The position numbers were made by a program, and so were the translations under genes. The notes beneath the pieces were generated by a model that did no database searches, was not told the DNA's origin, and worked only from the letters and a program-made list of their open reading frames with translations. A stretch of 64,000 bases of DNA from positions 232,174 through 296,173 of the forward strand of contig JBAXXP010000001.1 of NCBI GenBank assembly GCA_037127815.1, in the 5' to 3' direction. The DNA comes from a bacterium (GTDB taxonomy: Bacteria > Patescibacteriota > Minisyncoccia > Phycocordibacterales > CAIZLB01). Of this stretch, positions 1 to 64,000 are shown piece after piece. Positions within the stretch are counted from its first letter, which is position 1. Every line of letters begins with the position of its first letter.

Positions 1-2
1 AG

Positions 3-2135
3 CTTAAGGAAAAAATTAGACAAAGCTCAAATAATAATAAGTATGTACTAATGCGACACGGTGAATCCGAGTCCAATGTACATGACATTATAAATTCACA
101 CGATCTTAACCTTTATGGTCTAACTGAAAAAGGTGTTGCTCAAGTTGAGGCTGCTGCAAAACTTTTAGACGCTACTGGTGTTGTATCAAATGCTGTAAAC
201 AGCGATGCTGAGGAAGGTTCAAATGACAGTGTAGATAAAACAGGAGCGAAGCGTCCAATAACAAAAATGTATTGTTCAGATTTTAGAAGAACAAAAGAGT
301 CTGCGAAAATTTTGGCAAAGACTTTGGGAATTGATGAATCGAACATAATCTATGACGCAAGACTTAGAGAGTGTGATGGTGGCGAGCTTGAAGGTCGTTC
401 TTGGAATGAAAGGCTTACATGCTTTATGACAGAATGGCAAAAAGTATTTCTAAAGCCATATGGAGGGGAGTCAACTTTTGATATTAAAAAGAGAGTTGCT
501 AATTTTCTTTATGAAACTGACTCTGCAAACAAGGACGAGAATATCTTGATTGTTACACATGGACTTCCTGCAAGAATGATAAAGGAAGTTGCTAAAGGGC
601 GAACAACAAGAGATATGATAAGAAGTGGATGGCAGGATCGTTCTGATATAAATGCTTCACTTCACTACATTGATTTCGTTCAATGGCCTCACGATGATAA
701 TTTTGAACTTGATATTCACAGACCTTTAATTGATGCTGTAACTTGGAAAAATGAAGAAGGTGAATTAATGAAAAGAATTCCAGATGTTTTTGATGTTTGG
801 TATGACTCTGGTTCTATGCCTTTTGCTTCTCAGCATTATCCTTTTGAAAACAAGAAGGAGTTTGAAATGCCAGATAGTAAGATATTCCCAGCTGATTATA
901 TTGCCGAAGGATTGGATCAAACAAGAGGTTGGTTTTATTCTCTACTTTGTCTTGGTGTTGGATTGTTTGATAAGTCACCATTCAGAAATGTTTCAGTAAA
1001 CGGACTTGTTCTAGCAGAGGACGGCAAGAAGATGTCAAAGAGTCTTAATAACTTCCCAGAGCTTATGGGGGTAGTTGAAAGATATGGCGCTGACTCACTT
1101 AGATATGCATTGGTCACATCGCCCGTTGCACAAGCTGAGGATTATGCCTTTTCTGAAAAAGCATTAGATGAAGTTAATAAAAAGCTATTCAATAGATTGG
1201 ATAATGTTTATACATTCTACAAAACTTATCGTGACATGTTTGGAGGTGAAATTGAACAAAGTTTTTATCAGCTTGTTTCCAAAAATGTCTTAGATCAATG
1301 GATTGTGGCAAGACTTAAGAAATTGAGTAATGACATGACGAGGGATCTTGATGCGTATCTGATATCAAAAGCTATTCGTCCAATAAATCAATTTATCGAT
1401 GATCTATCAACTTGGTATTTAAGAAGATCAAGAGACAGATTCAAAGGTGATGATGTTGAAGATAGAAACTATGCGATTTCAACAATGAGATTTGTCTTAA
1501 TTAATCTTTCTAAATTAATAACACCAGTAACACCATTTTCAGGAGAGGATTTGTATCAAAAGATTAAATTAGATAATATTGGTGATTTAAAATTAAGTGT
1601 GAACCTAGAGGAATGGCCAAATCTTGGCGAGCTTTCTGATGAAGAAGAGACACTGCTTGCTAATATGGAAACAGCGAGATCTCTTGTTGAAACTGGATTG
1701 TCTCTTCGTGCAAAATTTCAGATAAAAGTTAGACAACCTCTTGCTTCATTTGTTTATGCAAACAAGGAAGGAGAAACTCTACCGGTGAGCATTGAGGAGA
1801 TTATTAAAGATGAACTAAACGTTAAGTCTGTTGTAGCGGGCAGTGCTGTAGCACTCGATATAAACCTAACACAAGAATTAAAGGAAGAGGGGATGTCCAG
1901 AGATCTAATTAGAGCTATTCAGGAGGCTAGAAAAGCTTTTGGTTTTTCTCCACAAGATAAAATTATTCTGGAATTAGAAGATAATGCTGTTGGAAAAATG
2001 TTAGAGTCTAAGTATTCTGCCTCAATTGCAAAAACTGTTCTCGCAAACAGTTTGGTGCTTATGGATTTTGAGGGAGGAGAGGCTGTGTCTATTGGAGATC
2101 AAGAAATACATTTCACAATTAAGGCTGTTGTATAA
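3..2135 (+). CDS. ileS: Isoleucyl-tRNA synthetase, C-terminal portion; the reading frame is open to the window edge so the gene starts upstream. It contains an embedded histidine-phosphatase (phosphoglycerate-mutase-like) domain
   Basis: DVWYDSGSMPF, DQTRGWFYSL and KMSKS motifs of class I IleRS (type-2-like HRPLID segment). N-terminal about 215 aa of the listed ORF shows LMRHGESESN ... LIVTHGLPAR histidine-phosphatase signature. No in-frame stop between nt 3 and 51. Confidence 0.8.
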   Translation, partial: LKEKIRQSSNNNKYVLMRHGESESNVHDIINSHDLNLYGLTEKGVAQVEAAAKLLDATGVVSNAVNSDAEEGSNDSVDKTGAKRPITKMYCSDFRRTKESAKILAKTLGIDESNIIYDARLRECDGGELEGRSWNERLTCFMTEWQKVFLKPYGGESTFDIKKRVANFLYETDSANKDENILIVTHGLPARMIKEVAKGRTTRDMIRSGWQDRSDINASLHYIDFVQWPHDDNFELDIHRPLIDAVTWKNEEGELMKRIPDVFDVWYDSGSMPFASQHYPFENKKEFEMPDSKIFPADYIAEGLDQTRGWFYSLLCLGVGLFDKSPFRNVSVNGLVLAEDGKKMSKSLNNFPELMGVVERYGADSLRYALVTSPVAQAEDYAFSEKALDEVNKKLFNRLDNVYTFYKTYRDMFGGEIEQSFYQLVSKNVLDQWIVARLKKLSNDMTRDLDAYLISKAIRPINQFIDDLSTWYLRRSRDRFKGDDVEDRNYAISTMRFVLINLSKLITPVTPFSGEDLYQKIKLDNIGDLKLSVNLEEWPNLGELSDEEETLLANMETARSLVETGLSLRAKFQIKVRQPLASFVYANKEGETLPVSIEEIIKDELNVKSVVAGSAVALDINLTQELKEEGMSRDLIRAIQEARKAFGFSPQDKIILELEDNAVGKMLESKYSASIAKTVLANSLVLMDFEGGEAVSIGDQEIHFTIKAVV

Positions 2136-2197
2136 GCTGTATATAAGTGAAAGTGTGTTTACTACAACCCTATTCCTAAGTTATTTAATTTACTACT

Positions 2198-2794
2198 ATG
2201 TCATATAGAATTTATCACACCGATGGATATATAATAGATAGTTCAAGCTCGGGGGAGTCTAATAAAGTTTTTACAATTCTAACTGCAGAGCTAGGTACTA
2301 TTATTGCTATCGCACAAGGGGTGCGTAAATTGCAATCAAAACTAAGATATAGTTTACAGGACTTGAGTTTTGCTAAATTTGCCTTAGTTAGGGGAAAGGA
2401 CATTTGGAGAATTACGGGGGCGGAAAAAATCGTTAATATTTATGACAAAAAAGTTCCAATTCAAATTAGACAATCCTTGGCTAGAATTCTAACTTTCATT
2501 AAAAGGCTTTCGCCGGGTGAGGCTGTAAACAAAAAAGTATTTGAGGAGTTTGGAAAACTACATAAGGTTTTAATCTCATCGAAGCTTGTAAGAGATAGGA
2601 ATGATTTAATTGCAATAGAAACGCTTGCATGCCTTAGGGTTGCTCATCATTTTGGATATGGAACACCAAGTGAAAAATTGAAGGACATTGTTTATTCATC
2701 AGTTTGGGATGAGGGAGTGAGAGACTCGACATTAATTTCAATTGAGGAAGCTAAGAGAGAGCTGTCTTCTGTCTTGGCTGAAGCTCAACTTTAA
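2198..2794 (+). CDS. recO: DNA repair protein RecO (short form)
   Basis: N-terminus GYIIDSSSSGESNKVFTILTAELGTIIAIAQGVRKLQSKL matches the RecO OB-fold pattern (cf. B. subtilis [40 protein letters not shown]). Confidence 0.6.
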   Translation: MSYRIYHTDGYIIDSSSSGESNKVFTILTAELGTIIAIAQGVRKLQSKLRYSLQDLSFAKFALVRGKDIWRITGAEKIVNIYDKKVPIQIRQSLARILTFIKRLSPGEAVNKKVFEEFGKLHKVLISSKLVRDRNDLIAIETLACLRVAHHFGYGTPSEKLKDIVYSSVWDEGVRDSTLISIEEAKRELSSVLAEAQL

Positions 2795-2857: not shown

Positions 2858-2943
2858 GGTGATTTAGTAAAATCACCTACTGGGTGATTTAGCCAAATCA
2901 CCTACTGGGTGGTTTAGCCAAATCACCTACTGGGTGATATAAT
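2858..2943. repeat. Three tandem copies of a 25/26-bp unit, each containing the palindrome AATCACC-N5-GGTGATT. A -10 TATAAT (2938-2943) overlaps the last unit
   Basis: Direct reading: palindromes at 2871-2889, 2896-2914, 2921-2938 plus a half-site at 2858-2865. ATG of downstream gene at 2951. Confidence 0.85.
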
Positions 2944-2950
2944 TTATGAT

Positions 2951-4882
2951 ATGAATGATGAAGAAAAAATCGAAGAGCTGAAAAAAAAGCTTTACTCTCG
3001 AGTAGATAATCTACCAAAAATGAAACATGCCAAACTGCATGAGCATCATGTCTTGGTAAACAGAGACTGGGATGAAAAGGGGGAGCAGGCAGGGATACCA
3101 AAAATTGAATATGGAAAAAATAAAACTCACTCATTCCTAAAAGGTATGGCTGTTTTTGCTGTAATATTTTTCTTGATTGCCGCTGCAATAGCTTATTATT
3201 TTTTCATGGTCAGCCCCAATACAATTTCTAATGCAAATATTGGAATAAACATATCAGGGCCTATTACAGTTTCTGCAGGCCAAGAACTTTCACTGGACGT
3301 AAGTATATTCAATAATAATAGTGTAGCAATTGAATCAGCAGACCTTGTTGTTACATACCCAGAAGGAACAAGAAATTCTGTAGATAAGGTGACGAGCCTT
3401 GTAACCGATAGGACTCCAATAGGAGATATAGCGGCCGGCGCTAATCAAAGAGTTACAATAAAGTCTATTCTTTTGGGGGAGGAAGGCTCAACAAAAAATA
3501 TATCTATTGCTTTGGAGTATAAAATGCCTGGTACAAACAGTCTTTTTATTAAGCAAAAAGATTATCCAATAGGCATAGGAACAGGTCCTGTTTCCGTGAC
3601 CGTTGATTCTGTTAAGGAAATCACCCCAGAACAAAATACAAAATTTACTGTATCTGTTAAATCTAACTCTTCAGATGTTATCAGAGATGTTGTTCTTAGG
3701 TCAGAGTATCCTTTTGGATTTAATTATATATCTGCAGTCCCTGGTCCGTCATCATCAAATAATAGTTGGAGACTGGGAGACATCGCACCAGGTGAGGTGA
3801 AGAAAATTGTGGTAGAAGCAAAGATTTTTGGGCAAGCTAATCAAGAGAGAACTGTTAGATTCTATGCTGGAACTGCGCAAGCCAAGGATCCAAATGAAAT
3901 AGACACGACCTTCGCTTCATATTCACAGACGGTTAATTTGAAGGATCCATTCTTAGGGGCTGATGTAGCTATAAATGGCAAGGGGTCAGAAATCGTTATT
4001 GTTAACAGTGGGCAGTTTATTCAGGGCGATATTCTGTGGAAGAATAATCTCGATGTTTCTGTTCATAATGTTCAAATTCTAGGTGTTCTAAATGGTGTAA
4101 GCGTAGACAGAAGCTCAATTATTGCAGAAGGTGGATTTTATAAATCTAGCGATGATACCTTATCTTGGGAAAAGAGTACCAATCCAGAACTGGAAGACAT
4201 CGCACCCAATCAAAGTGGCTCAGTCCATTTTAATATGAAAGTTTTTGATTTAACAAAGGATCTAGCCTCAAATTTAAGAAGACCAGAAGTAACATTGGTT
4301 TTTTCGGTTAAGGGAACTAGATTAAATGAAAATAAAGTTTCTGAGGAAGTGACTTCACAGGCCTCAAGAAAAATAAGAGTTGCGAGTGATCTAGCTCTAG
4401 ACACAAGGTTGCTTTACAATGATGGACCATTTGAAAACACAGGTCCATTGCCCCCAAGAGTAGATAGTAAAACAACTTACACGGCAAATGTGAAGATTTC
4501 AAACTCATATAATAATGTTAGGGGTGTAATTTATACGGCCTCGCTACCGATATATGTAAAATGGCTGGGGAATGTAAGTCCAATGACCGCCAGTTCAACA
4601 GTTGTTTATGATGCTGAGAACAGAACTGTGACTTGGAATGCAGGGGACATTGCACCTGGTACTGGTTATATTTCTAATCCAAAAGAAATGACATTTCAAG
4701 TTGAGTTGTTGCCAAGTCTTTCTCAGCAGGGCCAATCTCCAATTATTGTAAGTAATCAAAGAATAGCTGGTACTGATAGTTTTACTAATACAGTTGTTAC
4801 AGCCAATGGGTACTCCTTAAACACCCAAATTAAGCTAGATTCAAAATATGATATGGATTTGGACAAGGTGGTTGGGAAGTAG
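2951..4882 (+). CDS. Hypothetical membrane-anchored surface protein: short cytoplasmic N-terminus, one TM (MAVFAVIFFLIAAAIAYYFF), large extracytoplasmic domain
   Basis: Long ORF, single N-proximal hydrophobic helix, no recognisable catalytic motifs. Confidence 0.5.
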   Translation: MNDEEKIEELKKKLYSRVDNLPKMKHAKLHEHHVLVNRDWDEKGEQAGIPKIEYGKNKTHSFLKGMAVFAVIFFLIAAAIAYYFFMVSPNTISNANIGINISGPITVSAGQELSLDVSIFNNNSVAIESADLVVTYPEGTRNSVDKVTSLVTDRTPIGDIAAGANQRVTIKSILLGEEGSTKNISIALEYKMPGTNSLFIKQKDYPIGIGTGPVSVTVDSVKEITPEQNTKFTVSVKSNSSDVIRDVVLRSEYPFGFNYISAVPGPSSSNNSWRLGDIAPGEVKKIVVEAKIFGQANQERTVRFYAGTAQAKDPNEIDTTFASYSQTVNLKDPFLGADVAINGKGSEIVIVNSGQFIQGDILWKNNLDVSVHNVQILGVLNGVSVDRSSIIAEGGFYKSSDDTLSWEKSTNPELEDIAPNQSGSVHFNMKVFDLTKDLASNLRRPEVTLVFSVKGTRLNENKVSEEVTSQASRKIRVASDLALDTRLLYNDGPFENTGPLPPRVDSKTTYTANVKISNSYNNVRGVIYTASLPIYVKWLGNVSPMTASSTVVYDAENRTVTWNAGDIAPGTGYISNPKEMTFQVELLPSLSQQGQSPIIVSNQRIAGTDSFTNTVVTANGYSLNTQIKLDSKYDMDLDKVVGK

Positions 4883-5245: not shown

Positions 5246-5461
5246 CTAAATAGTGGCCATTTTTTGTATAATATATTTCTTGAGCGTAATTAAATTTTTA
5301 AGATTTTCAACAAAAGTTATAGCTTGAGCTCGCTGTCTAGCCTTACTTACAGATACAAGCACAACGCTTGAAAGAAGAGCAATTATTGAAATAACAACCA
5401 ATAACTCGATAAGAGTGAATCCTCCCGCTTTTCTTATTTTAAAACAAGATGTCGGCTTCAT
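5246..5461 (-). CDS. Type IV pilin/pseudopilin-like protein (prepilin N-terminal methylation motif); possibly only the N-terminal part of a disrupted gene
   Basis: KAGGFTLIELLVVISIIALL, classic class III signal peptide / N-methylation motif (G-F-T-L-I-E). Confidence 0.6.
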   Translation of the reverse strand: MKPTSCFKIRKAGGFTLIELLVVISIIALLSSVVLVSVSKARQRAQAITFVENLKNLITLKKYIIQKMATI

Positions 5462-5547
5462 GTATATATATTAACACATAAATATTGTATTAATTAAGTA
5501 GTCGGTATCATTTTTGATTAATGTGAAAAAACTGGTACTATATTGCT

Positions 5548-6906
5548 ATGGAAGAAATAATTGCTTTAGCTAAAAGACGTGGATTTATATACCAAGGTTC
5601 TGAGATATATGGAGGTCTTGCTGGTACATGGGATTATGGCCATTTGGGCCTAGCTCTTAAAAACAACATCAAAGCTCTTTGGTGGAAGCGTTTTGTGCTA
5701 GATAGAGAAGATATGTATGGAGTTGACGCTGCCATTTTAATGAATCAAAATGTTTGGAAGGCGAGCGGTCACGTTGCTGGATTCTTTGACCCACTTGTTG
5801 ATGACCTAAAGACAAATAAAAGATACAGAGCTGACTCATTGCTTGAGGAAGCGGGCCTTAGTATTAAAGGTATGTCTATTGAAGACATGAATAATCTAAT
5901 TAAGGAGAAGGGGATTAAAAGCCCAGAAGGCAATCCTCTTGGAGAAGTTAGACAATTTAGAATGATGTTCACTACTCACGTTGGGGCAAATCAAGATGAA
6001 GATTCAGTTTCATACTTACGTCCTGAAACAGCACAAGGAATGTTTGTAAACTTCAAAAATATTATAGACTCATTTCATCCAAAGCTTCCTTTTGGAATGG
6101 CACAAATTGGTAAGGCATTCAGAAATGAGATTGCACCAAGAGATTTTATATTTAGAACTCGTGAGTTTGAGCAAATGGAAATAGAGTATTTTGTTTATCC
6201 TGTTGCCTGGGAGGTTTCCTTTGAGCTTTTTAGAAAAGAAATGCATGCCTTTGCCTCAGATGTTGGTCTGAATCCTGCAAAAGTTCATGAGCTGGAAATT
6301 GCGCCTGAAGACCTTGCTCACTATTCAAAAAGAACAATAGACTTTGAGTTTGATTTCCCAATGGGAAGGAAAGAGCTGTACGGTCTAGCTTACAGAACTG
6401 ATTTTGACCTTAAGAGTCACACAAATGCTTCAAAGGTAGATCTTTCTTTTTTCGATGAGGAAACAAAAGAACGTTTTTTTCCACACTGTATTGAGCCATC
6501 GCTTGGAGTAGACAGAACTGTTCTTGCTGTGCTAACAGATGCATATTCAGAAGATATTGTGGGTGAAGAAAAAAGGGTTTATATGAAGATTTCTCCTAAA
6601 ATCTCCCCTGTGTTAATTGCTGTCTTTCCACTCTTGAAGAATAAGCCTCAATTAGTTGAAAAGGCAAGAGAAATTTATAGTACATTAAGAAAAGCTTTTC
6701 CTGGAAGAATAATGTTTGATGATAATGGAAATATTGGAAAGAGATACAGAAGACAAGACGAAATAGGAACTCCTTATTGTATAACTGTTGATTTTGATAC
6801 CTTAGAAAAGGATCAAAAAGTGACTCTAAGATATAGAGATTCAGCCTTACAGGACAGGCTTTCAATGGAGCAAATAATGGATGTTATTAAAGATACTTTG
6901 CAGTAG
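5548..6906 (+). CDS. glyQS: Glycine--tRNA ligase (alpha2 type)
   Basis: N-terminus RRGFIYQGSEIYGGLAGTWDYGHLGLALKNNIK is a diagnostic GlyRS motif. Confidence 0.9.
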   Translation: MEEIIALAKRRGFIYQGSEIYGGLAGTWDYGHLGLALKNNIKALWWKRFVLDREDMYGVDAAILMNQNVWKASGHVAGFFDPLVDDLKTNKRYRADSLLEEAGLSIKGMSIEDMNNLIKEKGIKSPEGNPLGEVRQFRMMFTTHVGANQDEDSVSYLRPETAQGMFVNFKNIIDSFHPKLPFGMAQIGKAFRNEIAPRDFIFRTREFEQMEIEYFVYPVAWEVSFELFRKEMHAFASDVGLNPAKVHELEIAPEDLAHYSKRTIDFEFDFPMGRKELYGLAYRTDFDLKSHTNASKVDLSFFDEETKERFFPHCIEPSLGVDRTVLAVLTDAYSEDIVGEEKRVYMKISPKISPVLIAVFPLLKNKPQLVEKAREIYSTLRKAFPGRIMFDDNGNIGKRYRRQDEIGTPYCITVDFDTLEKDQKVTLRYRDSALQDRLSMEQIMDVIKDTLQ

Positions 6907-6932
6907 AGTTAATCTAGTGGTATTCTGTAGAT

Positions 6933-8006
6933 GTGCCTGATAAAAGTAATTCGTTAAATATAAAAATAAGCTTTAAAACTCTATTTAAGATAGCTGCTTT
7001 TTTGCTTGGTATTTATTTTCTTTATCTTCTAAGAGGGCTTGGTTTGGTCATCCTTACTGGAGTTGTTATTGCTTCAGTTATAGAACCTGCTGTTAAGTGG
7101 TTTGTTAAAAGAAACATACCAAGAGTGCTTTCTGCAATACTTGTGTATGCATTGATTATTGGGGCTGTTGCTGGGATGTTTACTTTTGTTATACCGCCTC
7201 TTTTGGGAGAAATGGTCTCAGCTATAAGTAGTGTTCCAAAATATGTAAAGACAATAGATATATTTACACCAATAAACAGAAGTGCATATAGTGGAACAAA
7301 ACTTCTATTCCCTGATATACCAAGCACTATTTCAGTAGGAGATATAATCTCAAACATAACAGACACTATCTCTACCTTCTCGGGAGGAATGTTTGATACA
7401 GTTGCTGGATTCTTCGGAGGAATCATTAGTGCTGTACTTATGATGGTTATTGCATTCTACTTGTCAGTTAGAGAAGACGGTGTGGGGGAGTTCCTATCCA
7501 TCGTTACTCCGCCTGAATATGAAAGATACGTAAGAGGTTTGTGGCAACGTGCGGAGAACAAAATTGCACGATGGATGCAAGGGCAACTCGCTCTTGGGTT
7601 AGTCGTGTTTATATTTATATACATAGGTCTACTTATAATTGGTGTTAAGCACCCGCTACTTCTTGCTTTGGTTGCTGGGGTATTTGAATTAATCCCCGTA
7701 ATTGGAATGACAATTTCTGCAATTCCAGCTTTCTTCCTGGGGGTACTAGATGGTGGTATTGGTGTTGGACTTTTCATACTAGGCTTATATTTTGTTGTGC
7801 AACAATTAGAGGCTCATGTTGTATATCCATTAGTTGTTAAAAAATTAATTGGTGTTCCACCACTTTTGGTTATTATCTCACTTGTTGCGGGGGCTGAGCT
7901 CGCTGGAATTGTAGGTGCACTTCTTGCTGTGCCTGTATCTGTTGCGCTCATGGAATACATAGATGATGTAGAAAGACGCAAGAAAGATGCTTTAGTAAAA
8001 GAATAG
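6933..8006 (+). CDS. AI-2E family transporter-like membrane protein (UPF0118)
   Basis: Multi-TM protein with the GLLIIGVKHPLLLALVAGVFELIPVIG segment typical of the family. Confidence 0.55.
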   Translation: MPDKSNSLNIKISFKTLFKIAAFLLGIYFLYLLRGLGLVILTGVVIASVIEPAVKWFVKRNIPRVLSAILVYALIIGAVAGMFTFVIPPLLGEMVSAISSVPKYVKTIDIFTPINRSAYSGTKLLFPDIPSTISVGDIISNITDTISTFSGGMFDTVAGFFGGIISAVLMMVIAFYLSVREDGVGEFLSIVTPPEYERYVRGLWQRAENKIARWMQGQLALGLVVFIFIYIGLLIIGVKHPLLLALVAGVFELIPVIGMTISAIPAFFLGVLDGGIGVGLFILGLYFVVQQLEAHVVYPLVVKKLIGVPPLLVIISLVAGAELAGIVGALLAVPVSVALMEYIDDVERRKKDALVKE

Positions 8007-9545: not shown

Positions 9546-9555
9546 TTTCTAAAAC

Positions 9556-10395
9556 ATGGAATTTCAATATATAGATATTCACGCACATGTAAACTCGTCA
9601 GAATTTGATAATGACAGAGACGAGGTTATTACGAGGTCGTTAGATGAAAGTGTGTATGTTGTTAATGTGGGGACTGATATAGAATCTTCTAAACAGGCTG
9701 TTTTAATAGCTGAAAAATATGAAGAAGGCGTTTATGCCATAGTTGGCATTCACCCGCACGAGGTTATGAATCTTGAAAAGGGAGGTTTGATAGAAAGCAC
9801 ATTGGCAGAACTAAAAGAGATAGCTAGGAATCCTAAAGTTATTGGAATAGGGGAATGCGGTTTAGATTTCTTTAAAATGGAGGAGTATAACAAGGATGTT
9901 TTAAATGAAGCTGGAGAAGTTGATGTGAAAAAAATAAAATCAGTTCAGGAGAGGGTTTTTAGGGGGCAAATTGATATTTCACTAGAGTTAGACAAACCTT
10001 TAATGCTACATTCAAGGGAAAGCTACGGCAAAACTTTAGGAATTCTTTATGAATATACAACCCTCCCTAGTGTAAGGTTACGAGGGGATGCACACTTCTT
10101 TGCTGGTTCATTAGAACAAGCATTGGCATTCATTAGTTACGGATTCACGATATCATTCACGGGTGTCATAACGTTTGCTAAAAATTACGAGGAAATAATC
10201 AAGGGAATTCCTCTAAATAAGATTCTTTCTGAGACAGACTGTCCTTATGTAGCACCGATACCTTTCAGGGGTAAAAGGGCAGAACCTGTTCATGTTAAGT
10301 TGGTAGTTCAAAAAATTGCTGAAATTAAGGGAATTTCAACAGAAGAAGCACGAGAGCAAATAGAAAAGAACGTAAAAGAGATGTTTTTTAGCTAG
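9556..10395 (+). CDS. tatD: TatD-family metal-dependent hydrolase/DNase
   Basis: IDIHAHVN ... GIHPHEV ... GECGLDF ... ETDCPYVAP motifs. Confidence 0.8.
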   Translation: MEFQYIDIHAHVNSSEFDNDRDEVITRSLDESVYVVNVGTDIESSKQAVLIAEKYEEGVYAIVGIHPHEVMNLEKGGLIESTLAELKEIARNPKVIGIGECGLDFFKMEEYNKDVLNEAGEVDVKKIKSVQERVFRGQIDISLELDKPLMLHSRESYGKTLGILYEYTTLPSVRLRGDAHFFAGSLEQALAFISYGFTISFTGVITFAKNYEEIIKGIPLNKILSETDCPYVAPIPFRGKRAEPVHVKLVVQKIAEIKGISTEEAREQIEKNVKEMFFS

Positions 10396-10493
10396 ATTTG
10401 AAGTTGGGAGGTAGATTTTGGTTAAAAACCTAAATTATAGGTATTCGACCCCAGACCGTTGCTCATCCTGGCCTTTTGTGTTAATCTTCTGGC

Positions 10494-11057
10494 ATGGCAA
10501 AAAAAGTTGAACTTATACAAGAGGACCAACAGCTTGAAAACAGAGTATATGAACTCGGTTTTCACTTCATCCCTACAATTGCGGAGGATGAGGTCGCTGT
10601 ACAGTTCTCGCACCTTAAGTCACTTATTGAGAAGCGCGGAGGACAATTTATCGCAGAAGAAATGCCTAAATTTAAAAACCTTGCGTATCCAATAAGCACG
10701 ACAAATAAGGGTCAGAAGAAAAATCATTTAGCATCATATTTTGGATGGGTTAAATTTGAAATTAATCCAGAAGAGGTAATTGCGTTAGAAAAAGAGATAA
10801 AGGCTTTTGCCACAATGCTCAGATTTCTATTGATTAAGACTGTAAAAGAAAATACATTTCTTGGAGCAGTTGCAGAAATTAAGGCAGATTCATCAAGAGC
10901 TGTTAAGGCCGCTGATGAGGTTGCAGAAAGCGTAATTTCAGAGGAAGTTGCCACAGCTGTAGAAGCTAGTGATGCAACATCAAATGAAGCTATTGCTGAA
11001 GCTGTTGCAGAAGAAGTTATTGATACTGAGAAGGTAGGTGATATCGCAACTGAATAA
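10494..11057 (+). CDS. rpsF: 30S ribosomal protein S6 (bS6) with acidic/Ala-rich C-terminal extension
   Basis: YELGFHFIP...RGGQFIAEEMPKFKNLAYPI pattern; position in rpsF-ssb-rpsR operon. Confidence 0.75.
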   Translation: MAKKVELIQEDQQLENRVYELGFHFIPTIAEDEVAVQFSHLKSLIEKRGGQFIAEEMPKFKNLAYPISTTNKGQKKNHLASYFGWVKFEINPEEVIALEKEIKAFATMLRFLLIKTVKENTFLGAVAEIKADSSRAVKAADEVAESVISEEVATAVEASDATSNEAIAEAVAEEVIDTEKVGDIATE

Positions 11058-44255: not shown

Positions 44256-44261
44256 ATATGT

Positions 44262-47302: not shown

Positions 47303-47322
47303 AAATGTAATACAATCAGACT

Positions 47323-56950: not shown

Positions 56951-57050
56951 TTAAATATATTTATGTAAGAAGAAAGTAATTTACGCTCGGTATTCTCTTT
57001 CTTTTCTGTGGCCTTTATGAGGCGTCTATTTTGTGCTAAAATGGCCCTAT

Positions 57051-59633
57051 ATGAGTATTATATCTGATCTGTTTTCCATCTCTAAAAAGCAGGTGGCTAA
57101 GTATAGAAAAATCGTTGATATTATCAATGGATTTGAGCCTTCTATACAAGCCTTATCTGATGAGGAGTTAAAAGCAAAAACTGAGGAGTTTAGAAACCGT
57201 TTAAATGGCGGGGCTGTTTTGAATGACATTCTACCAGAGGCTTTTGCTGTTGTTAGAGAGGCTTCACACAGAACCCTTGGTCAACGCCATTATGATGTTC
57301 AGTTAATAGGAGGTCTAGTTCTTCACAATGGAAATATTGCAGAAATGAAAACTGGAGAAGGAAAGACTTTGATGGCAACACTAGCTGCGTACCTGAATGC
57401 AGTTTCAGGAAAAGGAGTTCATGTTGTAACTGTTAATGATTATCTTGCAAGAAGAGATGCTGCTTGGATGGGAGAAATTTATTATGCACTTGGATTATCT
57501 ACCGGTGTTGTTAATGAAGGGGAGTCTTACCTTTATGATCCAGCTGCTGTTGTAGAAAGATTAGGCGAAGAGGCAGAAGAAAAACTAGAGAAAAAAGAAG
57601 ATGAAGTCGGGGCATTTAAAATTGTCTATGAACTACTTAGACCAACAGACAAGAAGTCTGCGTACCTAGCTGATATAACTTATGGAACAAATAATCAATT
57701 TGGGTTTGACTATCTACGTGACAACCTAGAACAAAGACCAGATGATCTAAGACAAAGAGAATTTAATTATGCGATTGTTGACGAGGTTGACTCAATTTTG
57801 ATTGATGAATCAAGAACTCCCTTGATCATTGCATCTCCTTATGCTGATTCAGGAAACTTATATGTAACTTTTGCAGAACTATCAAAACATTTAGAAAAAG
57901 ATGTTCACTACGTTGTTGATGAAAAATTCAAAACAATATCTGTAACGGACGCTGGAATTGATGCTGCAGAGAAAAGCCTTGGAGTAACTAATATATATAG
58001 TGAGGGTGGTGTTAAGTATGTTCACCATATGGAAACCGCCATTAGAGCAAAGGCATTGTTCCATAGAGATGTTGATTACATAGTAAAGGATAATGAAGTT
58101 ATGATTGTTGATCCTTCAACAGGAAGACTTCAACCAGGTAGAAGATGGTCAGAGGGTTTACATCAAGCTATTGAAGCTAAGGAAGGAGTAGAAATTAAAA
58201 AAGAATCAAGAACTTATGCATCTATCACATTCCAAAACTATTTTAGAATGTATCCAAAGCTAGCTGGAATGACAGGAACTGGTCTTACAAGTCAGGAAGA
58301 GTTTTTGAAAGTCTATGGACTTGATGTTATTGAGGTTCCAACACATCGCGCAATTTCTCGTGTAGACAAAACCGATCTTATTTTTAGAACAGAAGCTGCA
58401 AAGTTTAGAGCTATTGCAAAAAAGATTAAAGAATTGAATCAAGTAGGACAGCCTGTTTTGGTTGGTACTGTTTCAATTGAAAAAAACCAATTGCTATCAG
58501 AGTTTCTAAAGAAAGAGGGAGTTCCTCATACATTACTAAATGCAAAACCAGAATTTGCAGAGAAAGAAGGAGAAACAGTGGCTCAGGCCGGAAAGAAGGG
58601 TGCTGTTACTATTGCAACAAACATGGCTGGACGTGGGGTTGATATTAAACTAGGAGGAGCACCGGGATCAAAGGATTTATATGAAGAAATAAAATCAGTT
58701 GGGGGGTTGTATATAATCGGAACAGAAAGACATGAAGCCAGAAGAATTGATAATCAATTAAGAGGAAGAGCTGGAAGACAAGGGGATCCAGGCGAAACTC
58801 AATTCTACGTTTCTTTTGAAGATGACTTGATGAGAATTTTTGCAAACGATTTTCTTAACAGTGCATTGGATAAATTGGGAATAGAAGAAGACCAACCGAT
58901 TGAAACAAGAATTGTGTCAAAACAACTTGAAAGTGCTCAAAGAAAGATTGAGGGTATTCACTTTGATTCCAGAAAACATACTCTTCAATATGACGATGTT
59001 TTAAATCAACAAAGAAGTAAGGTATATTCAAGAAGAAAGAGAATTGTTCTATCAACTCCCGAGGAAGTAGAAACAGAGCTTGCAATTTTCTTGACAACAT
59101 CAACAGACGAGGAAAAAATGGCAATAGAAAATAGACGTGCTCAATTTAAAGGACAAGCTATTGCAAATGGGTTTGCAGAAGCAGATGCTGAGAAACCTTT
59201 CTTGTATACTGCTAGAAATATAATTCTACAAACAATAGACCTGTTCTGGGTAGATCACCTAGAGATGATGGAGTACTTGCGTTCAAGTGTGTCGCTTAGA
59301 GCGTATGGACAAAGAGATCCTCTTGTTGAGTACAAAACTGAGGGACTAAGAATGTATAAGGATATGGAGCTTGGTGTTTCTGGAGAGATCACGAGACTGC
59401 TTCAATTGGTGAGTGGAGAAATAACAGTAAATAATACACCTGTAAAGACTGTTGGATTAAGAGCTGATAATACATTAGAGGATCAATCTCAATCTCAAGG
59501 AGTTTACTCTGGTGATGTATCAAATGCCGCAAACTTTGTTGCGTCTTCTGCTCATGGAGCTGATAAGGTTGGAAGAAATGATCCATGTCCATGCGGCTCT
59601 GGAAAGAAATACAAAAAATGTCACGGTCAATAG
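57051..59633 (+). CDS. secA: Preprotein translocase ATPase SecA (ATG at 57051; ORF-track start 57033 is an upstream GTG)
   Basis: MSIISDLFSISKKQVAKYRKIVDIIN N-terminus, DEAD-like motor motifs, C-terminal zinc finger CPCGSGKKYKKCHG. Confidence 0.9.
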   Translation: MSIISDLFSISKKQVAKYRKIVDIINGFEPSIQALSDEELKAKTEEFRNRLNGGAVLNDILPEAFAVVREASHRTLGQRHYDVQLIGGLVLHNGNIAEMKTGEGKTLMATLAAYLNAVSGKGVHVVTVNDYLARRDAAWMGEIYYALGLSTGVVNEGESYLYDPAAVVERLGEEAEEKLEKKEDEVGAFKIVYELLRPTDKKSAYLADITYGTNNQFGFDYLRDNLEQRPDDLRQREFNYAIVDEVDSILIDESRTPLIIASPYADSGNLYVTFAELSKHLEKDVHYVVDEKFKTISVTDAGIDAAEKSLGVTNIYSEGGVKYVHHMETAIRAKALFHRDVDYIVKDNEVMIVDPSTGRLQPGRRWSEGLHQAIEAKEGVEIKKESRTYASITFQNYFRMYPKLAGMTGTGLTSQEEFLKVYGLDVIEVPTHRAISRVDKTDLIFRTEAAKFRAIAKKIKELNQVGQPVLVGTVSIEKNQLLSEFLKKEGVPHTLLNAKPEFAEKEGETVAQAGKKGAVTIATNMAGRGVDIKLGGAPGSKDLYEEIKSVGGLYIIGTERHEARRIDNQLRGRAGRQGDPGETQFYVSFEDDLMRIFANDFLNSALDKLGIEEDQPIETRIVSKQLESAQRKIEGIHFDSRKHTLQYDDVLNQQRSKVYSRRKRIVLSTPEEVETELAIFLTTSTDEEKMAIENRRAQFKGQAIANGFAEADAEKPFLYTARNIILQTIDLFWVDHLEMMEYLRSSVSLRAYGQRDPLVEYKTEGLRMYKDMELGVSGEITRLLQLVSGEITVNNTPVKTVGLRADNTLEDQSQSQGVYSGDVSNAANFVASSAHGADKVGRNDPCPCGSGKKYKKCHGQ

Positions 59634-60594: not shown

Positions 60595-60681
60595 AAACCC
60601 TTATTTAAATAACTCTAGGTTTGTTGGGTAGTTAATTGTGACGCAAGACCTAAAACTTTTTTTATTGTATAATATCAACAT

Positions 60682-61704
60682 ATGAACAATAAAAAACCAC
60701 AAATATTTTTTGGAGTAGCCTTAGCTATTGTCTTTGTGCTGTCAGCTTTGGTCCTCCTTCCTTTTTTAACAACATTGGTACTCGCTGTTATCTTATCAGT
60801 ACTGCTTAATCCTATATTTAAAAGAGTTACAAAACTATTTTTCAAGAATAAAACTATAGGAGCGTTAATGACTATTATTTTGTCATGTATTTTAATCTTC
60901 ATACCAATCGGCCTACTTTCATATCAGCTGTTTCTAGAGGCTCAAAGTGCATATAGTTCATTTGGAGCATCGGGGGCGTCAAATATCGTGACTCTGAATC
61001 AATCAATTAATGAGAACCTCAGATCAATGATACCAAGTATTGATGTTCATTTAGAAAAATATATTGGAGATTTGTATACATGGTTAATATCTAATCTAGG
61101 AAACCTGTTCTCTGGTACATTTGATATTTTCCTAAAGACTTTGATTATATTAGTATCAATGTTCTTCCTGTTGAAGGACGGGGAGTTTATTCAAAAGAAT
61201 ATAAAGGACATGATTCCAATTTCATCCGATGTTTATGATTACCTGGTCAAAAGCATGAAGGTAACAATAAATTCCGTGGTGTTTGGCTCTATTGCAATTG
61301 CCATTATTCAAGGAGTTTCATCGGGAATTGGATTCGCAATTTTTGGTATTCCTAATTCAACAATGTGGGGAACAGTAGCAGCAGCTGCTTCATTCATACC
61401 AGGCTTTGGTACTGGTATTCTCTTTGTGCCAATGATGTTGTATGCCTTTTTGTATGGTTCTCTTTTTCAAGTTTTCGGGTTATTATTATGGGCCATGATT
61501 TTTGTTAATGCTATTGAAACATTTTTGAGACCTATGATTATTCATAAGTCAGTCAATATTCATCCTCTGTTCATTATATTTTCAATACTTGGAGGAATTA
61601 GTTTCTTTGGACCAGTTGGTTCAATACTTGGTCCGCTAATTCTAGGTCTACTGTTTGCTATGATAAGGGTTTATAAAATGAAGGATATCTCAATCGCTAA
61701 ATAA
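60682..61704 (+). CDS. AI-2E family transporter-like membrane protein (second paralog in window)
   Basis: Polytopic; same architecture as 6933..8006. Confidence 0.55.
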   Translation: MNNKKPQIFFGVALAIVFVLSALVLLPFLTTLVLAVILSVLLNPIFKRVTKLFFKNKTIGALMTIILSCILIFIPIGLLSYQLFLEAQSAYSSFGASGASNIVTLNQSINENLRSMIPSIDVHLEKYIGDLYTWLISNLGNLFSGTFDIFLKTLIILVSMFFLLKDGEFIQKNIKDMIPISSDVYDYLVKSMKVTINSVVFGSIAIAIIQGVSSGIGFAIFGIPNSTMWGTVAAAASFIPGFGTGILFVPMMLYAFLYGSLFQVFGLLLWAMIFVNAIETFLRPMIIHKSVNIHPLFIIFSILGGISFFGPVGSILGPLILGLLFAMIRVYKMKDISIAK

Positions 61705-62813: not shown

Positions 62814-62875
62814 GTATATAGGGCTAGGTGCTATAGTAGGCCATCCCACTAAATTTAAATAATAACAAAAAATAT

Positions 62876-63901
62876 ATGGCGTTTATAGACGAAATGACAA
62901 TTAGGATGAAGGCTGGAAATGGAGGAGATGGAGTGGTTAGATGGTTGCATGAAAAGTTTAAGGAGTTTGGTGGTCCTTCTGGTGGAAACGGAGGAACTGG
63001 AGGTCATATATATGCAAAGGCTGTGAGAGATTCATGGCTGCTGTCTAGATATCGTCACACAAAAGAATTCGTTGCACAAAATGGTCAAGCTGGAGGAAAC
63101 AAAAGTATGCACGGATCAAATGGTGAGAACCTATATGTAGAAGTTCCTGTTGGAACAATTTTGAAGAACCTTACAACTGGGGAGGTTTTTAGACTTGATA
63201 AGGAAGGTCAAGAAACTATGATTTTAAAGGGAGGAAATGGAGGTCTTGGAAATGAAAACTTTAAATCATCAACAAACCAAACTCCAGAAGAACATACTCC
63301 TGGAAAGATTGGAGAAGAAGCAGATTTTCACATTGAAGTTGAAATTATTGCTAGTGCTGGACTAATTGGTTTACCAAACGCAGGTAAGTCATCACTTTTA
63401 AATTCACTAACACGCGCTGAAGCAAAGGTTGGTGCATATCAGTTTACAACACTAGAGCCAAACTTAGGTGATTTGTATGGTCACATTCTTGCTGATATCC
63501 CAGGTATTATTGAAGGAGCAGGGGAAGGAAAGGGTCTTGGTCATAAATTCCTAAAACACGTAAGAAGAACAAAAATGCTTCTGCACTGTATTTCTATTGA
63601 AAATGAAATAGAAAATCTGGGTGGACACATTGGAGGGATGGAAGAAATTTACGATGTTATAAGAGAAGAACTTGCTTCATTTGACGAGGAATTAGTTAAG
63701 AAGGAAGAAATAATTATCTTCACAAAATCAGACTTGCTACCACCTGGGGACGCACAAGAAATTGCAGAAAAATTTATGAAGAAAAAGTTTGCTGGAGAAC
63801 TAGCGGAGGGAAAGAAGTACTTTGTTATTTCTGTTTACGATGTGGACGCTATCAAGCATTTTTCTGATGAATTGATGAAGATTTTGGAGGTGTTGGACTA
63901 G
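62876..63901 (+). CDS. obg: GTPase Obg/CgtA
   Basis: FIDEMTIRMKAGNGGDGVVRW...GGPSGGNGGTGG Obg fold, G-domain GLPNAGKSSLL, DIPG. Confidence 0.85.
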   Translation: MAFIDEMTIRMKAGNGGDGVVRWLHEKFKEFGGPSGGNGGTGGHIYAKAVRDSWLLSRYRHTKEFVAQNGQAGGNKSMHGSNGENLYVEVPVGTILKNLTTGEVFRLDKEGQETMILKGGNGGLGNENFKSSTNQTPEEHTPGKIGEEADFHIEVEIIASAGLIGLPNAGKSSLLNSLTRAEAKVGAYQFTTLEPNLGDLYGHILADIPGIIEGAGEGKGLGHKFLKHVRRTKMLLHCISIENEIENLGGHIGGMEEIYDVIREELASFDEELVKKEEIIIFTKSDLLPPGDAQEIAEKFMKKKFAGELAEGKKYFVISVYDVDAIKHFSDELMKILEVLD

Positions 63902-64000
63902 GGGATGTTATAAAAGAGATAATAAAATAGTGGGTGCGGAGTATGGTGCTTAGCCCCCTTTATTTTTGCAGTGAAAATCTTTTGCTTTTCTTTATCAAAA

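What the first reader, a model, noticed from the sequence alone, without database searches (positions are those of the whole stretch)
1..64000. Whole-window pattern: no Shine-Dalgarno motifs and start codons 5-9 nt after -10 hexamers (leaderless-style initiation)
None of the starts I inspected has a GGAGG-type purine tract upstream. This covers glyQS, metG, tatD, rpsF, ssb, rpsR, recA, ftsK, rplJ, rplL, secD, pyk, secA and obg. Several starts have a TATAAT-like -10 ending 5-9 nt before the start codon. Examples: 2938-2943 to ATG 2951; TGGTACTAT 5534-5542 to ATG 5548; TATAAT 44250-44255 to ATG 44262; TGCTAAAAT 57034-57042 to ATG 57051; TAGAAT 34750-34755 to ATG 34762. This fits the missing anti-SD in the 16S tail (separate finding). 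A leaderless translation regime affects how gene starts should be called here. Examples in this window are recO/dinJ/secA starts and the TTG/GTG starts listed in the ORF track.
Basis: partly seen in the sequence, partly recalled or inferred. Interest (0 to 1): 0.65.

Follow-up and report, generated by a model that had tools for sequence, protein, structure and literature searches.

The report
Shine-Dalgarno-free, largely leaderless gene starts
This piece of an uncultured, tiny-genome "Parcubacteria" bacterium has lost the ribosomal RNA sequence that normally finds gene starts. Many of its genes instead sit directly behind a promoter, so the messenger RNA probably begins at the start codon; the pattern is real and useful for gene calling, but the underlying loss is already published for this group.

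Summary
The window comes from a 36% GC Patescibacteria (Parcubacteria/Paceibacteria) genome. Its 16S rRNA ends in GGAACAAUUCAAUU instead of GGAUCACCUCCUUU.

Shine-Dalgarno (SD) pairing upstream of blind ORF-called starts is at shuffle level: 4% of genes, against 66% in an E. coli control. There is also no pairing to the organism's own 16S tail.

An extended -10 promoter motif (TGnTAnnnT) peaks sharply with the hexamer ending 6 nt before ATG. It occurs at gap 5-9 in 11 of 43 window starts, against 0.8% of other ATGs (p about 5e-14). The same peak appears in about 1,270 genes on related contigs. The positions not fixed by the search pattern give TATAAT, T at -17 and a pyrimidine at -1. The motif is commoner in genes likely to head a transcription unit.

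This is the standard computational signature of leaderless mRNAs. Roughly 25-45% of window genes fit it. The remaining genes have A-rich, G-poor, weakly folded upstream regions without SD.

Several longest-ORF GTG/TTG starts should move to downstream ATGs (dinJ, secA, radC and others).

Loss of the anti-SD in a Parcubacteria subgroup is already published (2022, 2024). I found no paper describing the leaderless architecture in this group. No transcription-start data exist, so leaderless initiation remains inferred.

The parts
42062..42075 (+). 3' tail of the 16S rRNA after helix 45: GGAACAAUUCAAUU. The anti-SD core CCUCC is replaced by AUUCA.
   Evidence: Rfam alignment to the SSU model and raw sequence. 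The same or a similar tail occurs in 7 related genomes. Among 119 metagenome 16S genes with this helix 45, only one has CCTCC.
2935..2953 (+). TGATATAAT, 7 nt, ATG 2951 (DUF11 surface protein): predicted leaderless start
5459..5476 (-). TGTTAATAT, 6 nt, ATG 5461 (71-aa pilin-like protein with an N_methyl motif)
5533..5550 (+). TGGTACTAT, 6 nt, ATG 5548 (glycyl-tRNA synthetase)
6918..6935 (+). TGGTATTCT, 6 nt, GTG 6933 (AI-2E permease). The promoter lies in a 26-nt spacer after glyS. Less certain because the start codon is GTG.
10479..10496 (+). TGTTAATCT, 6 nt, ATG 10494 (rpsF)
12558..12578 (-). TACAAT, 9 nt, ATG 12560 (efp). No TGn; leaderless or a 1-3 nt leader.
12687..12704 (+). TGATAGTAT, 6 nt, ATG 12702 (MazF-like toxin 1)
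13285..13302 (+). TGTTAATAT, 6 nt, ATG 13300 (MazF-like toxin 2). Replaces the longest-ORF TTG 13297.
18194..18213 (-). TGTTAAAAT, 8 nt, ATG 18196 (ftsK)
28470..28487 (+). TGCTACAGT, 6 nt, ATG 28485 (hypothetical protein). Replaces GTG 28434.
29271..29290 (+). TACAAT, 8 nt, ATG 29288 (mechanosensitive-channel-like protein)
34747..34764 (+). TGCTAGAAT, 6 nt, ATG 34762 (hypothetical 251-aa protein, first gene after the 5S rRNA)
42579..42603 (+). Palindrome ATACCATATATGATAT containing the -10 TATGAT, then 8 nt, then ATG 42601 (HTH-MurA fusion). In relatives the gap is 6-9 nt to the homologous ATGAAA start.
44227..44264 (+). TTGCAA, 17 nt, TATAAT, 6 nt, ATG 44262 (RelB/DinJ antitoxin). Replaces TTG 44205.
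   Evidence: Joint top-scoring (10 of 12) site of the generic promoter scan. Pfam RelB profile position 3 aligns to residue 23 of the long ORF. Coordinates.
46511..46531 (+). TGCTATAGT, 9 nt, ATG 46529 (radC). Replaces TTG 46412. The same arrangement occurs in orthologues L007, L009 and L011.
47308..47325 (+). TACAAT, 6 nt, ATG 47323 (TP_methylase/RsmI-like). The promoter overlaps the end of radC.
48111..48128 (+). TGCTATACT, 6 nt, ATG 48126 (55-aa ORF)
53036..53056 (+). TGATATACT, 9 nt, ATG 53054 (Wzy_C/TPR protein)
57034..57053 (+). TGCTAAAAT, 8 nt, ATG 57051 (secA). Replaces GTG 57033. Preceded by a terminator-like hairpin at 56915-56946.
59561..59580 (+). TGATAAGGT, 8 nt, ATG 59578 (NAD-dependent epimerase, 338 aa). 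The promoter lies inside the 3' end of secA.
   Evidence: The public gene call places the same start. Motif.
60665..60684 (+). TATAAT, 8 nt, ATG 60682 (second AI-2E permease)
36827..36850 (+). GAGTATAAT, 12 nt, ATG 36848 (secD). Predicted very short leader (about 5 nt) without SD. Conserved in L010.
44861..44907 (+). TGCTAGGAT, 35 nt, ATG 44905 (pyk). Predicted leader of about 29 nt made almost only of A and T, with no SD. The promoter box is conserved in six relatives.
9546..9558 (+). 10-nt spacer TTTCTAAAAC between the metG stop and tatD ATG 9556: operon-internal start without SD or promoter
27788..27829 (+). 39-nt A-rich spacer between rplJ and rplL ATG 27827, without SD
62814..62878 (+). 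62-nt spacer before obg ATG 62876. The last 15 nt are 73% A, with no SD and no -10.

Best explanation
The organism is a Parcubacteria/Paceibacteria (candidate phyla radiation) bacterium whose ribosome has no anti-Shine-Dalgarno sequence, so SD pairing plays no part in finding start codons. Two other routes are used.

(a) For a large share of transcription units, a sigma-70-type extended -10 promoter (consensus T-TGnTATAAT, weak -35) is placed so that RNA polymerase starts at, or within 1-3 nt of, the A of the ATG. This covers about a quarter of all window genes on the strict motif, up to about 45% on looser criteria, and 36-64% of genes that probably head a unit. The resulting leaderless mRNA is decoded by direct binding of a ribosome carrying initiator tRNA to the 5'-terminal AUG. 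Some of these promoters lie inside the 3' end of the preceding gene, so neighbouring genes can be expressed as separate leaderless units.

(b) The remaining genes are operon-internal or have short to about 30-nt leaders. They have A-rich, G-poor, weakly folded regions around the ATG. They are most likely initiated by SD-independent loading on unstructured RNA (helped by protein bS1) or by re-initiation after the upstream stop.

Shown here: the anti-SD loss, the absence of SD, the promoter-box position and its statistics, and the low folding. Inferred: the transcription start sites and the ribosome pathway.
For: Anti-SD loss. The 16S tail is GGAACAAUUCAAUU. The same type of tail occurs in 7 related genomes, including a Zambryskibacteria MAG. 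Of 119 metagenome 16S genes sharing this helix 45, 117 lack an intact or near-intact core. A Parcubacteria subgroup lacking the anti-SD is published (PMC9297842; PMC10783764).

No SD. 4% of starts reach -4.4 kcal/mol, equal to shuffles, against 66% in E. coli with the same pipeline. Genus-level relatives show no positional SD peak.

Promoter position. TGnTAnnnT counts by position peak at -15 (a 6-nt gap): 7/50 in the window, 13/122 in near relatives and 80/856 in far relatives, against about 2 per position elsewhere. The peak recurs at 27 against about 1 in 416 genes on independent contigs whose own 16S tail is degenerate. Window-only p values are 5e-14 and 2e-10. The gap distribution is 6:93, 7:18, 8:18, 9:22 and 5:1.

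Promoter identity. In the gap-6 subset the unconstrained positions give TATAAT. T at -17 is 74%, there is a weak T-rich -35, and a pyrimidine at -1 (83%) precedes the A at +1.

Operon position. The motif is present in 36% of window genes with a divergent or 100-nt-or-longer upstream gap, against 7% and 14% of co-directional genes with shorter gaps.

Conservation. Spacing is conserved while the spacer sequence drifts in orthologues of HTH-murA and radC.

Other genes. The region -20..-1 is 43% A and 12% G. Mean folding energy from -20 to +20 is -2.35 against -4.19 kcal/mol for coding 40-mers (p 1e-7). The first 40 nt of the putative leaderless mRNAs average -1.66.

GeneMarkS-2 uses exactly this signature, a Pribnow box 6-8 nt from the start, for its leaderless group C. 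It was checked against dRNA-seq in M. tuberculosis and D. deserti (PMC6028130).
Against: There are no transcription-start data for this or any close relative.

Gaps of 7-9 nt and cases such as secD (12 nt) allow leaders of a few nucleotides rather than none.

Gene starts were called by a crude rule (first ATG of ORFs of at least 100 aa), which favours ATG. The 147/152 ATG share among candidates is therefore not independent evidence.

Some curated starts (44262, 46529, 59578, 42601, 48126, 5461) were chosen partly because of the motif. They were not used in the statistics.

A generic promoter scan shows no excess of promoter-like sites.

More distant relatives with degenerate tails still show a small SD-like peak: 35/416 genes against 15 in control windows. 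This is unexplained.

The presence or absence of bS1, bS21 and uL1 in this genome could not be checked from 64 kb.
Confidence: 0.8

Rival explanations
1. Chance: in 36% GC DNA, TATAAT-like hexamers and the lack of G-rich SD motifs upstream of genes are simply what the base composition gives.
For: A generic -35/-10 scan finds 72 sites against 74.4 +/- 8.6 in shuffles. Plain TAnnnT at gap 5-9 occurs at 11.5% of all non-start ATGs and 16% of intergenic ones. SD scores equal those of shuffled upstream regions, so the absence of SD is partly a matter of composition.
Against: The positional peak cannot come from composition. TGnTAnnnT reaches 80 at one position against about 2 at neighbouring positions in 856 genes. 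The window-only p value is 5e-14. The peak recurs in an independent contig set. The free positions converge on TATAAT and T at -17. The 16S tail itself lacks CCUCC.
Confidence: 0.02
2. The mRNAs are leadered throughout. The T/A-rich box 6-9 nt before ATG is a non-SD ribosome-binding or enhancer element in the RNA, as in Bacteroidetes-type genomes (GeneMarkS-2 group B), not a promoter.
For: Upstream regions of all genes are A/T-rich and unstructured. Some genes clearly have leaders without SD (pyk, secD, the VirD4-like gene). No TSS data exist.
Against: The motif includes an invariant-type TG at -15/-14 and T at -17, which are RNA polymerase contacts of extended -10 promoters (own knowledge). 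Its distance to ATG equals the canonical distance from the -10 box to +1. Position -1 is a pyrimidine in 83%. The motif is 3-5 times more frequent in genes that probably head a unit than in closely following genes. Group B motifs occur before all genes alike (PMC6028130). Among genes without the box, unbiased k-mer analysis shows only generic A-rich words plus residual SD words.
Confidence: 0.1
3. SD-type pairing persists in altered form: mRNAs carry a new motif complementary to the changed 16S tail (AAUUCAAUU).
For: The degenerate tail is not random. Across 113 distinct tails the central U is 100% conserved and the following C 78%.
Against: Duplex energies of -22..-2 regions with ACAAUUCAAUU, AAUUCAAUU or GGAACAAUUCAAUUUGA are no better than shuffles (for example -0.60 against -0.93 kcal/mol). 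Words of 5 or 6 nt complementary to the native tail occur in 190 and 46 of 832 upstream regions, against 209 and 53 in control windows. Tails differ widely between relatives, from AUUCA and AUUCC to UUUUU, while the start-region signals stay the same.
Confidence: 0.03
4. Artefact or hidden anti-SD: the 16S 3' end is misassembled, or the mature rRNA extends to a CCUCC further downstream (there is one at 42196-42200).
For: CCTCC occurs 130 nt after helix 45 in the window.
Against: The same tail occurs on independent assemblies. The downstream CCTCC is present only in the same genus (window, L007, L010) and absent from L024, L034, L058 and L071. Only 14 of 123 related sequences have any CCTCC within 250 nt, at scattered positions. 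An anti-SD 130 nt from helix 45 could not sit at the mRNA exit site (own knowledge).
Confidence: 0.02

Closest known systems
Anti-SD-lacking subgroup of Parcubacteria (Tsurumaki et al. 2022, RNA 28:1041, PMC9297842); 'SD-scarce organisms lacking CCUCC', including Ca. Wolfebacteria, Campbellbacteria and SR1 (PLoS One 2024, PMC10783764)
   Same: Same bacterial group (the related loci are titled Paceibacteria, Parcubacteria, Zambryskibacteria and Minisyncoccia). Same loss of the CCUCC(U) motif at the 16S 3' end. Long bS6 and bL12 as described there.
   Different: Those papers report the rRNA and SD deficit. As far as I could search, they do not describe promoter-adjacent start codons or leaderless mRNAs; 'leaderless' occurs 0 times in PMC9297842. 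The link they report to uL1 loss could not be tested here.
Leaderless-rich bacteria: Actinobacteria and Deinococcus-Thermus (GeneMarkS-2 'group C', PMC6028130; M. tuberculosis, D. deserti)
   Same: A Pribnow box 6-8 nt upstream of the start codon of first genes in operons. An estimated 25-50% of units are leaderless. ATG is the dominant start codon.
   Different: Those organisms keep the anti-SD and use SD for leadered and internal genes; here neither is present. Here the promoter is of the extended -10 (TRTGn) type in an AT-rich genome.
Bacteroidetes-type SD-independent initiation (GeneMarkS-2 'group B'; Flavobacteriia)
   Same: Genes without SD have A-rich, unstructured regions before the start codon.
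   Different: Most Bacteroidetes retain the anti-SD sequence (own knowledge; only some Flavobacteriia lack it). They show one non-SD motif before all genes. Leaderless transcripts are not their main route.
Haloarchaea and other archaea with mostly leaderless transcripts, and mammalian mitochondria
   Same: Leaderless mRNAs combined with little or no functional SD pairing (Haloferax: PMC3986360; mitochondria: own knowledge).
   Different: Different promoter type (TATA/BRE about 26 nt upstream in archaea) and different initiation factors. No phylogenetic relation.
E. coli 'specialised ribosomes' proposed to arise when MazF removes the 16S 3' end (own knowledge; the model is contested)
   Same: Ribosomes without an anti-SD paired with leaderless mRNAs. 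The window happens to carry two MazF-like genes.
   Different: Here the loss is genomic and constitutive, not a stress response. No link to the MazF genes was tested.

Membership tests
Anti-SD-lacking Parcubacteria subgroup | 16S rRNA 3' end lacks the CCUCC(U) motif | tested here: met
   Tail is GGAACAAUUCAAUU. Confirmed on related genomes and 119 metagenome contigs. The downstream CCTCC is not conserved.
Anti-SD-lacking Parcubacteria subgroup | Phylogenetic placement in Parcubacteria/Paceibacteria (CPR) | tested here: met
   The closest genomes for the HTH-MurA protein (62-90% identity) are titled Paceibacteria, Parcubacteria, Zambryskibacteria, Minisyncoccia or Patescibacteria; some titles say Saccharibacteria or Gammaproteobacteria, which look like automatic labels. 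CPR hallmarks are present: unlinked rRNA genes and a group I intron in the 23S. No phylogenetic tree was built.
Anti-SD-lacking Parcubacteria subgroup | Co-occurring loss of ribosomal protein uL1, with frequent absence of bS21 | not testable with these tools
   Only 64 kb of the genome is available. rplJ-rplL (27293-28324) is not preceded by rplK-rplA; a NYN-domain gene and 442 nt of non-coding DNA lie there instead. This is suggestive only.
Leaderless transcription/translation (GeneMarkS-2 group C type) | -10 promoter box at a fixed short distance (6-8 nt) upstream of start codons | tested here: met
   Sharp peak at a 6-nt gap, with shoulders at 7-9.
Leaderless transcription/translation (GeneMarkS-2 group C type) | Signal concentrated in first genes of transcription units | tested here: met
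   36% against 7% and 14% in the window; 19% against 7% in far relatives. Unit boundaries were inferred only from spacing and orientation, and some promoters lie inside upstream genes.
Leaderless transcription/translation (GeneMarkS-2 group C type) | Mapped transcription start coincides with the start codon | not testable with these tools
   No transcriptome data are available. Indirect support: a pyrimidine at -1 in 83% and A at +1.
Leaderless transcription/translation (GeneMarkS-2 group C type) | SD-type RBS for internal or leadered genes (part of the group C model) | tested here: not met
   No SD enrichment in the window or its genus. The genome therefore works like group C for first genes but is not a typical member.
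Bacteroidetes-type non-SD initiation (group B) | One non-SD motif upstream of all genes, first and internal alike | tested here: inconclusive
   Only general A-richness (A 43%, G 12%; A 65% at -6 in 57 genes) and A-rich words such as AATAA and AAATAA were found. No discrete motif emerged.
Bacteroidetes-type non-SD initiation (group B) | Anti-SD retained in the 16S rRNA but not used | tested here: not met
   The anti-SD is absent.

The most novel reading that the evidence does not exclude
In this Parcubacteria lineage, loss of the anti-SD has gone together with a reorganisation of gene expression into many separate leaderless units. Extended -10 promoters sit exactly 6 nt before AUG, some of them inside the preceding gene. 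None of 85 co-directional gene pairs show the usual 4-nt or 1-nt overlaps. All remaining cistrons start on A-rich unstructured RNA. On this reading it would be a free-standing bacterial clade with obligately SD-free translation, comparable to mitochondria. SD-like sequences would survive only as inert fossils on horizontally acquired genes. No paper found here's library searches describes this architecture for the candidate phyla radiation.
Probability: 0.45. Interest if true: 0.55.

Novelty: new member of a known kind. Interest (0 to 1): 0.4.

Why it matters
Practical. Gene finders that assume an SD, or that take the longest ORF, will misplace starts in these genomes. In this window at least six GTG/TTG longest-ORF starts should move to a downstream ATG that sits behind a -10 box. 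Small leaderless ORFs (55-71 aa) are also easily missed. The TGnTAnnnT-6-ATG rule gives a simple, testable start and promoter predictor for thousands of uncultured Parcubacteria genomes.

Biological. The result supplies the missing half of a published observation. It was known that these ribosomes lack the anti-SD, but how start codons are then found was left open. It also gives a natural bacterial system in which leaderless and unstructured-leader initiation carry all translation. That bears on ideas that leaderless initiation is the ancestral mode.

Tried and rejected
(1) Pairing of upstream regions to the organism's own 16S tail: no signal.

(2) A displaced anti-SD at 42196-42200: conserved only within the genus.

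(3) The generic sigma-70 promoter scan as evidence: not above shuffles, so not used.

(4) A within-lineage positive control for SD use. None of 56 related loci with at least 8 genes is SD-rich; the maximum is 25%. The three metagenome contigs with canonical or near-canonical tails (L175, L112, L177) have too few genes. They show SD-like GAGG/GGAG before a few genes, which is anecdotal only. E. coli was used as the control instead.

(5) Literature searches for CPR/Patescibacteria/Parcubacteria together with leaderless or anti-SD. These found the two papers on anti-SD loss but none on leaderless mRNAs in the group.

(6) The ATG at 51 as a gene start. The ORF is open from window base 3, so this gene runs off the window and was excluded.

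(7) Start-codon usage as independent support: dropped, because my start rule favours ATG.

(8) A comparison with anti-SD-retaining CPR classes through a protein-homologue search. This was not run, because the tools return no organism names for such hits and the cost was not justified.

Full report
**What the window is.** The 64-kb window is 36% GC. It carries a 23S rRNA gene with a group I intron, a 5S gene and, 6 kb further on, an unlinked 16S gene followed by tRNA-Ile. Pfam identifies about 45 ordinary housekeeping and cell-envelope genes: glyS, metG, tatD, rpsF, ssb, rpsR, efp, recA, ftsK, rplJ, rplL, ftsW, secDF, pyk, radC, secA, obg and others. The Obg protein is found on a MAG contig (GCA_005795825.1) and on lake metagenome contigs. 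The closest genomes for the HTH-MurA protein are titled Paceibacteria, Parcubacteria, Zambryskibacteria, Minisyncoccia or Patescibacteria. The organism is therefore a candidate-phyla-radiation bacterium of the Parcubacteria group.

**The rRNA side.** Aligned to the bacterial SSU model, helix 45 is intact. The tail reads GGAACAAUUCAAUU where the consensus is GGAUCACCUCCUUU (window 42062-42075). Seven related genomes, including a Zambryskibacteria MAG, have the same kind of tail.

Of 119 readable tails, one is canonical, two are near-canonical, and the rest are GGAWYAWUUCAA-like or U-rich. A CCTCC 130 nt downstream of the 16S gene is conserved only within the genus. The anti-SD loss is therefore real and lineage-wide.

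This loss is already published. Tsurumaki et al. 2022 detected the anti-SD motif in only 48% of Parcubacteria, noted an overlap with the uL1-lacking group, and found bS21 often absent. A 2024 survey lists Ca. Wolfebacteria, Campbellbacteria and SR1 as SD-scarce organisms lacking CCUCC.

**The SD test.** To avoid circularity, I called genes blind to upstream signals. I took non-overlapping ORFs of at least 100 aa and used the first ATG within 25 codons of the first start codon.
- For 50 starts (window plus the 8.5-kb continuation L001), only 4% of the -22..-2 regions pair with ACCUCCUUA at -4.4 kcal/mol or better. Shuffles of the same bases give 5%, and a control region at -62..-41 gives 14%.
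- The same pipeline on 59 E. coli ORFs gives 66%, 32% and 17%.
- SD core words show no positional peak in the window or in nine genus-level relatives.
- None of 56 related loci is SD-rich.
- Pairing to the organism's own tail is no better than shuffles, and words complementary to it are not enriched.

**The -10 test.** Systematically, the extended -10 pattern TGnTAnnnT counted by position relative to the start codon gives a single sharp peak at -15. That places the hexamer at -12..-7, with six bases before the ATG.
- The peak is 7 of 50 genes in the window, 13 of 122 in near relatives and 80 of 856 in far relatives, against about 2 per position elsewhere.
- In the window alone, 11 of 43 blind starts carry the pattern at gap 5-9. 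It occurs at 17 of 2066 other ATGs (p 5e-14) and at 4 of 220 intergenic ATGs (p 2e-10).
- Those four intergenic 'non-starts' are themselves probable starts of small ORFs (5461, 48126, 22113, 22411).
- The gap distribution over 152 carriers is 6:93, 7:18, 8:18, 9:22 and 5:1.
- In the 93 gap-6 cases the unconstrained positions converge on TATAAT. T at -17 is 74% (the TRTG form of extended -10 promoters; own knowledge). There is a weak T-rich -35, position -1 is a pyrimidine in 83%, and codons 2-3 are A-rich.
- The motif is present in 36% of window genes with a divergent or long upstream gap, against 7% and 14% of closely following co-directional genes.
- An independent set of 416 genes on contigs that each carry a degenerate-tail 16S shows the same peak, 27 against about 1.
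- In orthologues of HTH-murA and radC the box-to-ATG distance stays at 6-9 nt while the spacer sequence changes.

This is the signature that GeneMarkS-2 uses for leaderless 'group C' genomes. It was checked against dRNA-seq in other bacteria.

A generic -35/-10 scan is not above shuffles. The evidence therefore lies in the position of the motif, not in the mere presence of TATAAT-like words.

**How much of the window is leaderless.** On blind calls, 26% of starts have the strict motif and 53% have any TAnnnT at gap 5-9, against 11.5% of other ATGs (16% of intergenic ones). On a curated list of 46 starts, 20 have a good -10 at gap 4-9, two at 10-15, four at 16-30, and 20 have none. Part of that list used the motif to choose the start, so it is descriptive only. 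Three promoters lie in or against the 3' end of the preceding gene (6933, 47323, 59578).

**The other genes.** Several genes have no box at the leaderless distance. They are mostly co-directional followers: metG, tatD, rpsR, recA, rplL, ftsW, secF, yafQ, MYG1 and obg. Others are leadered. The conserved pyk promoter box lies 35 nt upstream and is followed by an almost pure A/T leader. The secD box is 12 nt upstream and conserved.

In 57 such genes of the genus-level set, the 20 nt before the ATG are 43% A and 12% G, against 33% and 20% for the window as a whole. The -20..+20 region folds weakly, at -2.35 against -4.19 kcal/mol for coding 40-mers (p 1e-7). No discrete non-SD motif emerged. None of 85 co-directional gene pairs in the genus-level set shows the common 4-nt or 1-nt overlap, and only five are within 20 nt. 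The caveat is that ORFs under 100 aa were not called.

I infer SD-independent initiation on unstructured A-rich RNA and/or re-initiation after the upstream stop. This step is inference from known mechanisms, not shown here.

**Consequences for annotation.** Longest-ORF starts at GTG or TTG are replaced by ATGs behind a -10 box:

| Gene | Longest-ORF start | Revised ATG |
|---|---|---|
| dinJ/relB | 44205 | 44262 |
| secA | 57033 | 57051 |
| radC | 46412 | 46529 |
| mazF-2 | 13297 | 13300 |
| 209-aa ORF | 28434 | 28485 |
| epimerase | 59512 | 59578 |

- The dinJ/relB revision is supported by the Pfam RelB alignment.
- The radC revision is supported by orthologues.
- The epimerase revision matches the public gene call.
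- HTH-murA probably starts at 42601 rather than 42595.
- recO (2198) shows no convincing signal.

**An unexplained point.** In more distant relatives, including contigs whose own 16S tail is degenerate, a small SD-like peak remains. GGAG-type words reach 18-30 at -12..-9 against 4-8 background. Strong 5-mers occur in 35 of 416 genes against 15 in control windows. AAGGAG occurs 26 times against 3.5. The carriers are mostly small hypothetical ORFs, often with a GC content well above that of their contig. This fits fossil SDs on acquired genes but was not resolved. Nothing comparable is seen in the window or its genus.

**Verdict.** The anti-SD loss is already known for this group. The leaderless promoter architecture is the expected, but apparently undescribed, counterpart; I found no paper linking CPR bacteria with leaderless mRNAs. 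I rate it a new member of a known kind, of moderate interest, with clear practical value for gene-start calling in Parcubacteria genomes.

Noticed in passing
window 30556-34308 (23S), 33367-33638 (intron), 34415-34523 (5S), 40596-42075 (16S), 42425-42499 (tRNA-Ile): The 23S gene spans 3753 nt for a 2925-nt model and contains a group I intron, plus further inserted sequence. The rRNA genes are unlinked and ordered 23S-5S, then 6 kb of protein genes, then 16S-tRNA-Ile. The 16S is short (1480 nt). These are typical CPR features.
   Followed up: no
window 3-2135 (+): An ORF is open from the first bases of the window. It has a histidine-phosphatase domain (RHGESESN motif) followed by the C-terminal half of an IleRS-like class I tRNA synthetase (tRNA-synt_1 positions 277-411, Anticodon_1, DUF5915). 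This is either an unusual insertion or fusion in the synthetase, or a split gene. The ATG at 51 is probably not its start.
   Followed up: partly
window 42579-42594; L007-L015, L020, L021 upstream of the MurA homologue: A 16-nt palindrome (ATATCATATATGATAT in relatives; one mismatch in the window) overlaps the -10 box and predicted start site of a gene that fuses an Xre-type HTH domain to a MurA/EPSP-synthase-family enzyme. It is conserved across species. It is a likely operator for autoregulation by the protein's own HTH.
   Followed up: partly
window 22498-22519 (+), 46476-46497 (+), 15681-15702 (-); L007 about 6480, L009 about 8160, L011 about 5556: A 22-nt motif CTTTAGRAWTTCTTTATAGAAA lies 18-45 nt upstream of three genes: radC, the 1202-aa LCAT-like gene, and the 137-aa gene that precedes recA. 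It recurs upstream of radC in three relatives. It is a candidate binding site of a regulator, possibly of a DNA-damage regulon.
   Followed up: partly
loci L088-L207 and L016-L086 (relatives), not the window: A residual SD-like peak (AAGGAG/GGAGG at -12..-9) occurs in about 5-8% of genes of relatives whose 16S tails lack CCUCC. It lies mostly before small hypothetical ORFs whose GC is higher than that of their contig. These may be fossil SDs on acquired genes.
   Followed up: partly
window plus genus-level loci L001, L007-L015: None of 85 co-directional neighbouring gene pairs overlaps by 4 or 1 nt, and only 5 lie within 20 nt. Most spacers are 21-120 nt. This is unusual for a small, streamlined genome. 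The caveat is that ORFs under 100 aa were not called.
   Followed up: partly
window 13935-15191 (-), 27827-28324 (+), 10494-11057 (+): The RecA ORF has about 95 residues before the RecA domain, with no internal ATG that could serve as an alternative start. bL12 (165 aa) and bS6 (187 aa) are also long, in line with the enlarged CPR ribosomal proteins reported by Tsurumaki et al.
   Followed up: no
window 12702-13100 and 13300-13689 (+); 44262-44801 (+): Two tandem MazF/PemK-like toxin genes each have their own TGnTAnnnT box 6 nt before the ATG, and no recognisable antitoxin gene lies between them. A RelB/DinJ-YafQ pair lies at 44262-44801.
   Followed up: no
window 26851-27292: rplJ-rplL is not preceded by rplK-rplA. 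A NYN-domain gene and 442 nt of non-coding DNA lie there instead, with no Rfam L10-leader match. This is compatible with, but not proof of, the uL1 loss reported for anti-SD-less Parcubacteria.
   Followed up: no
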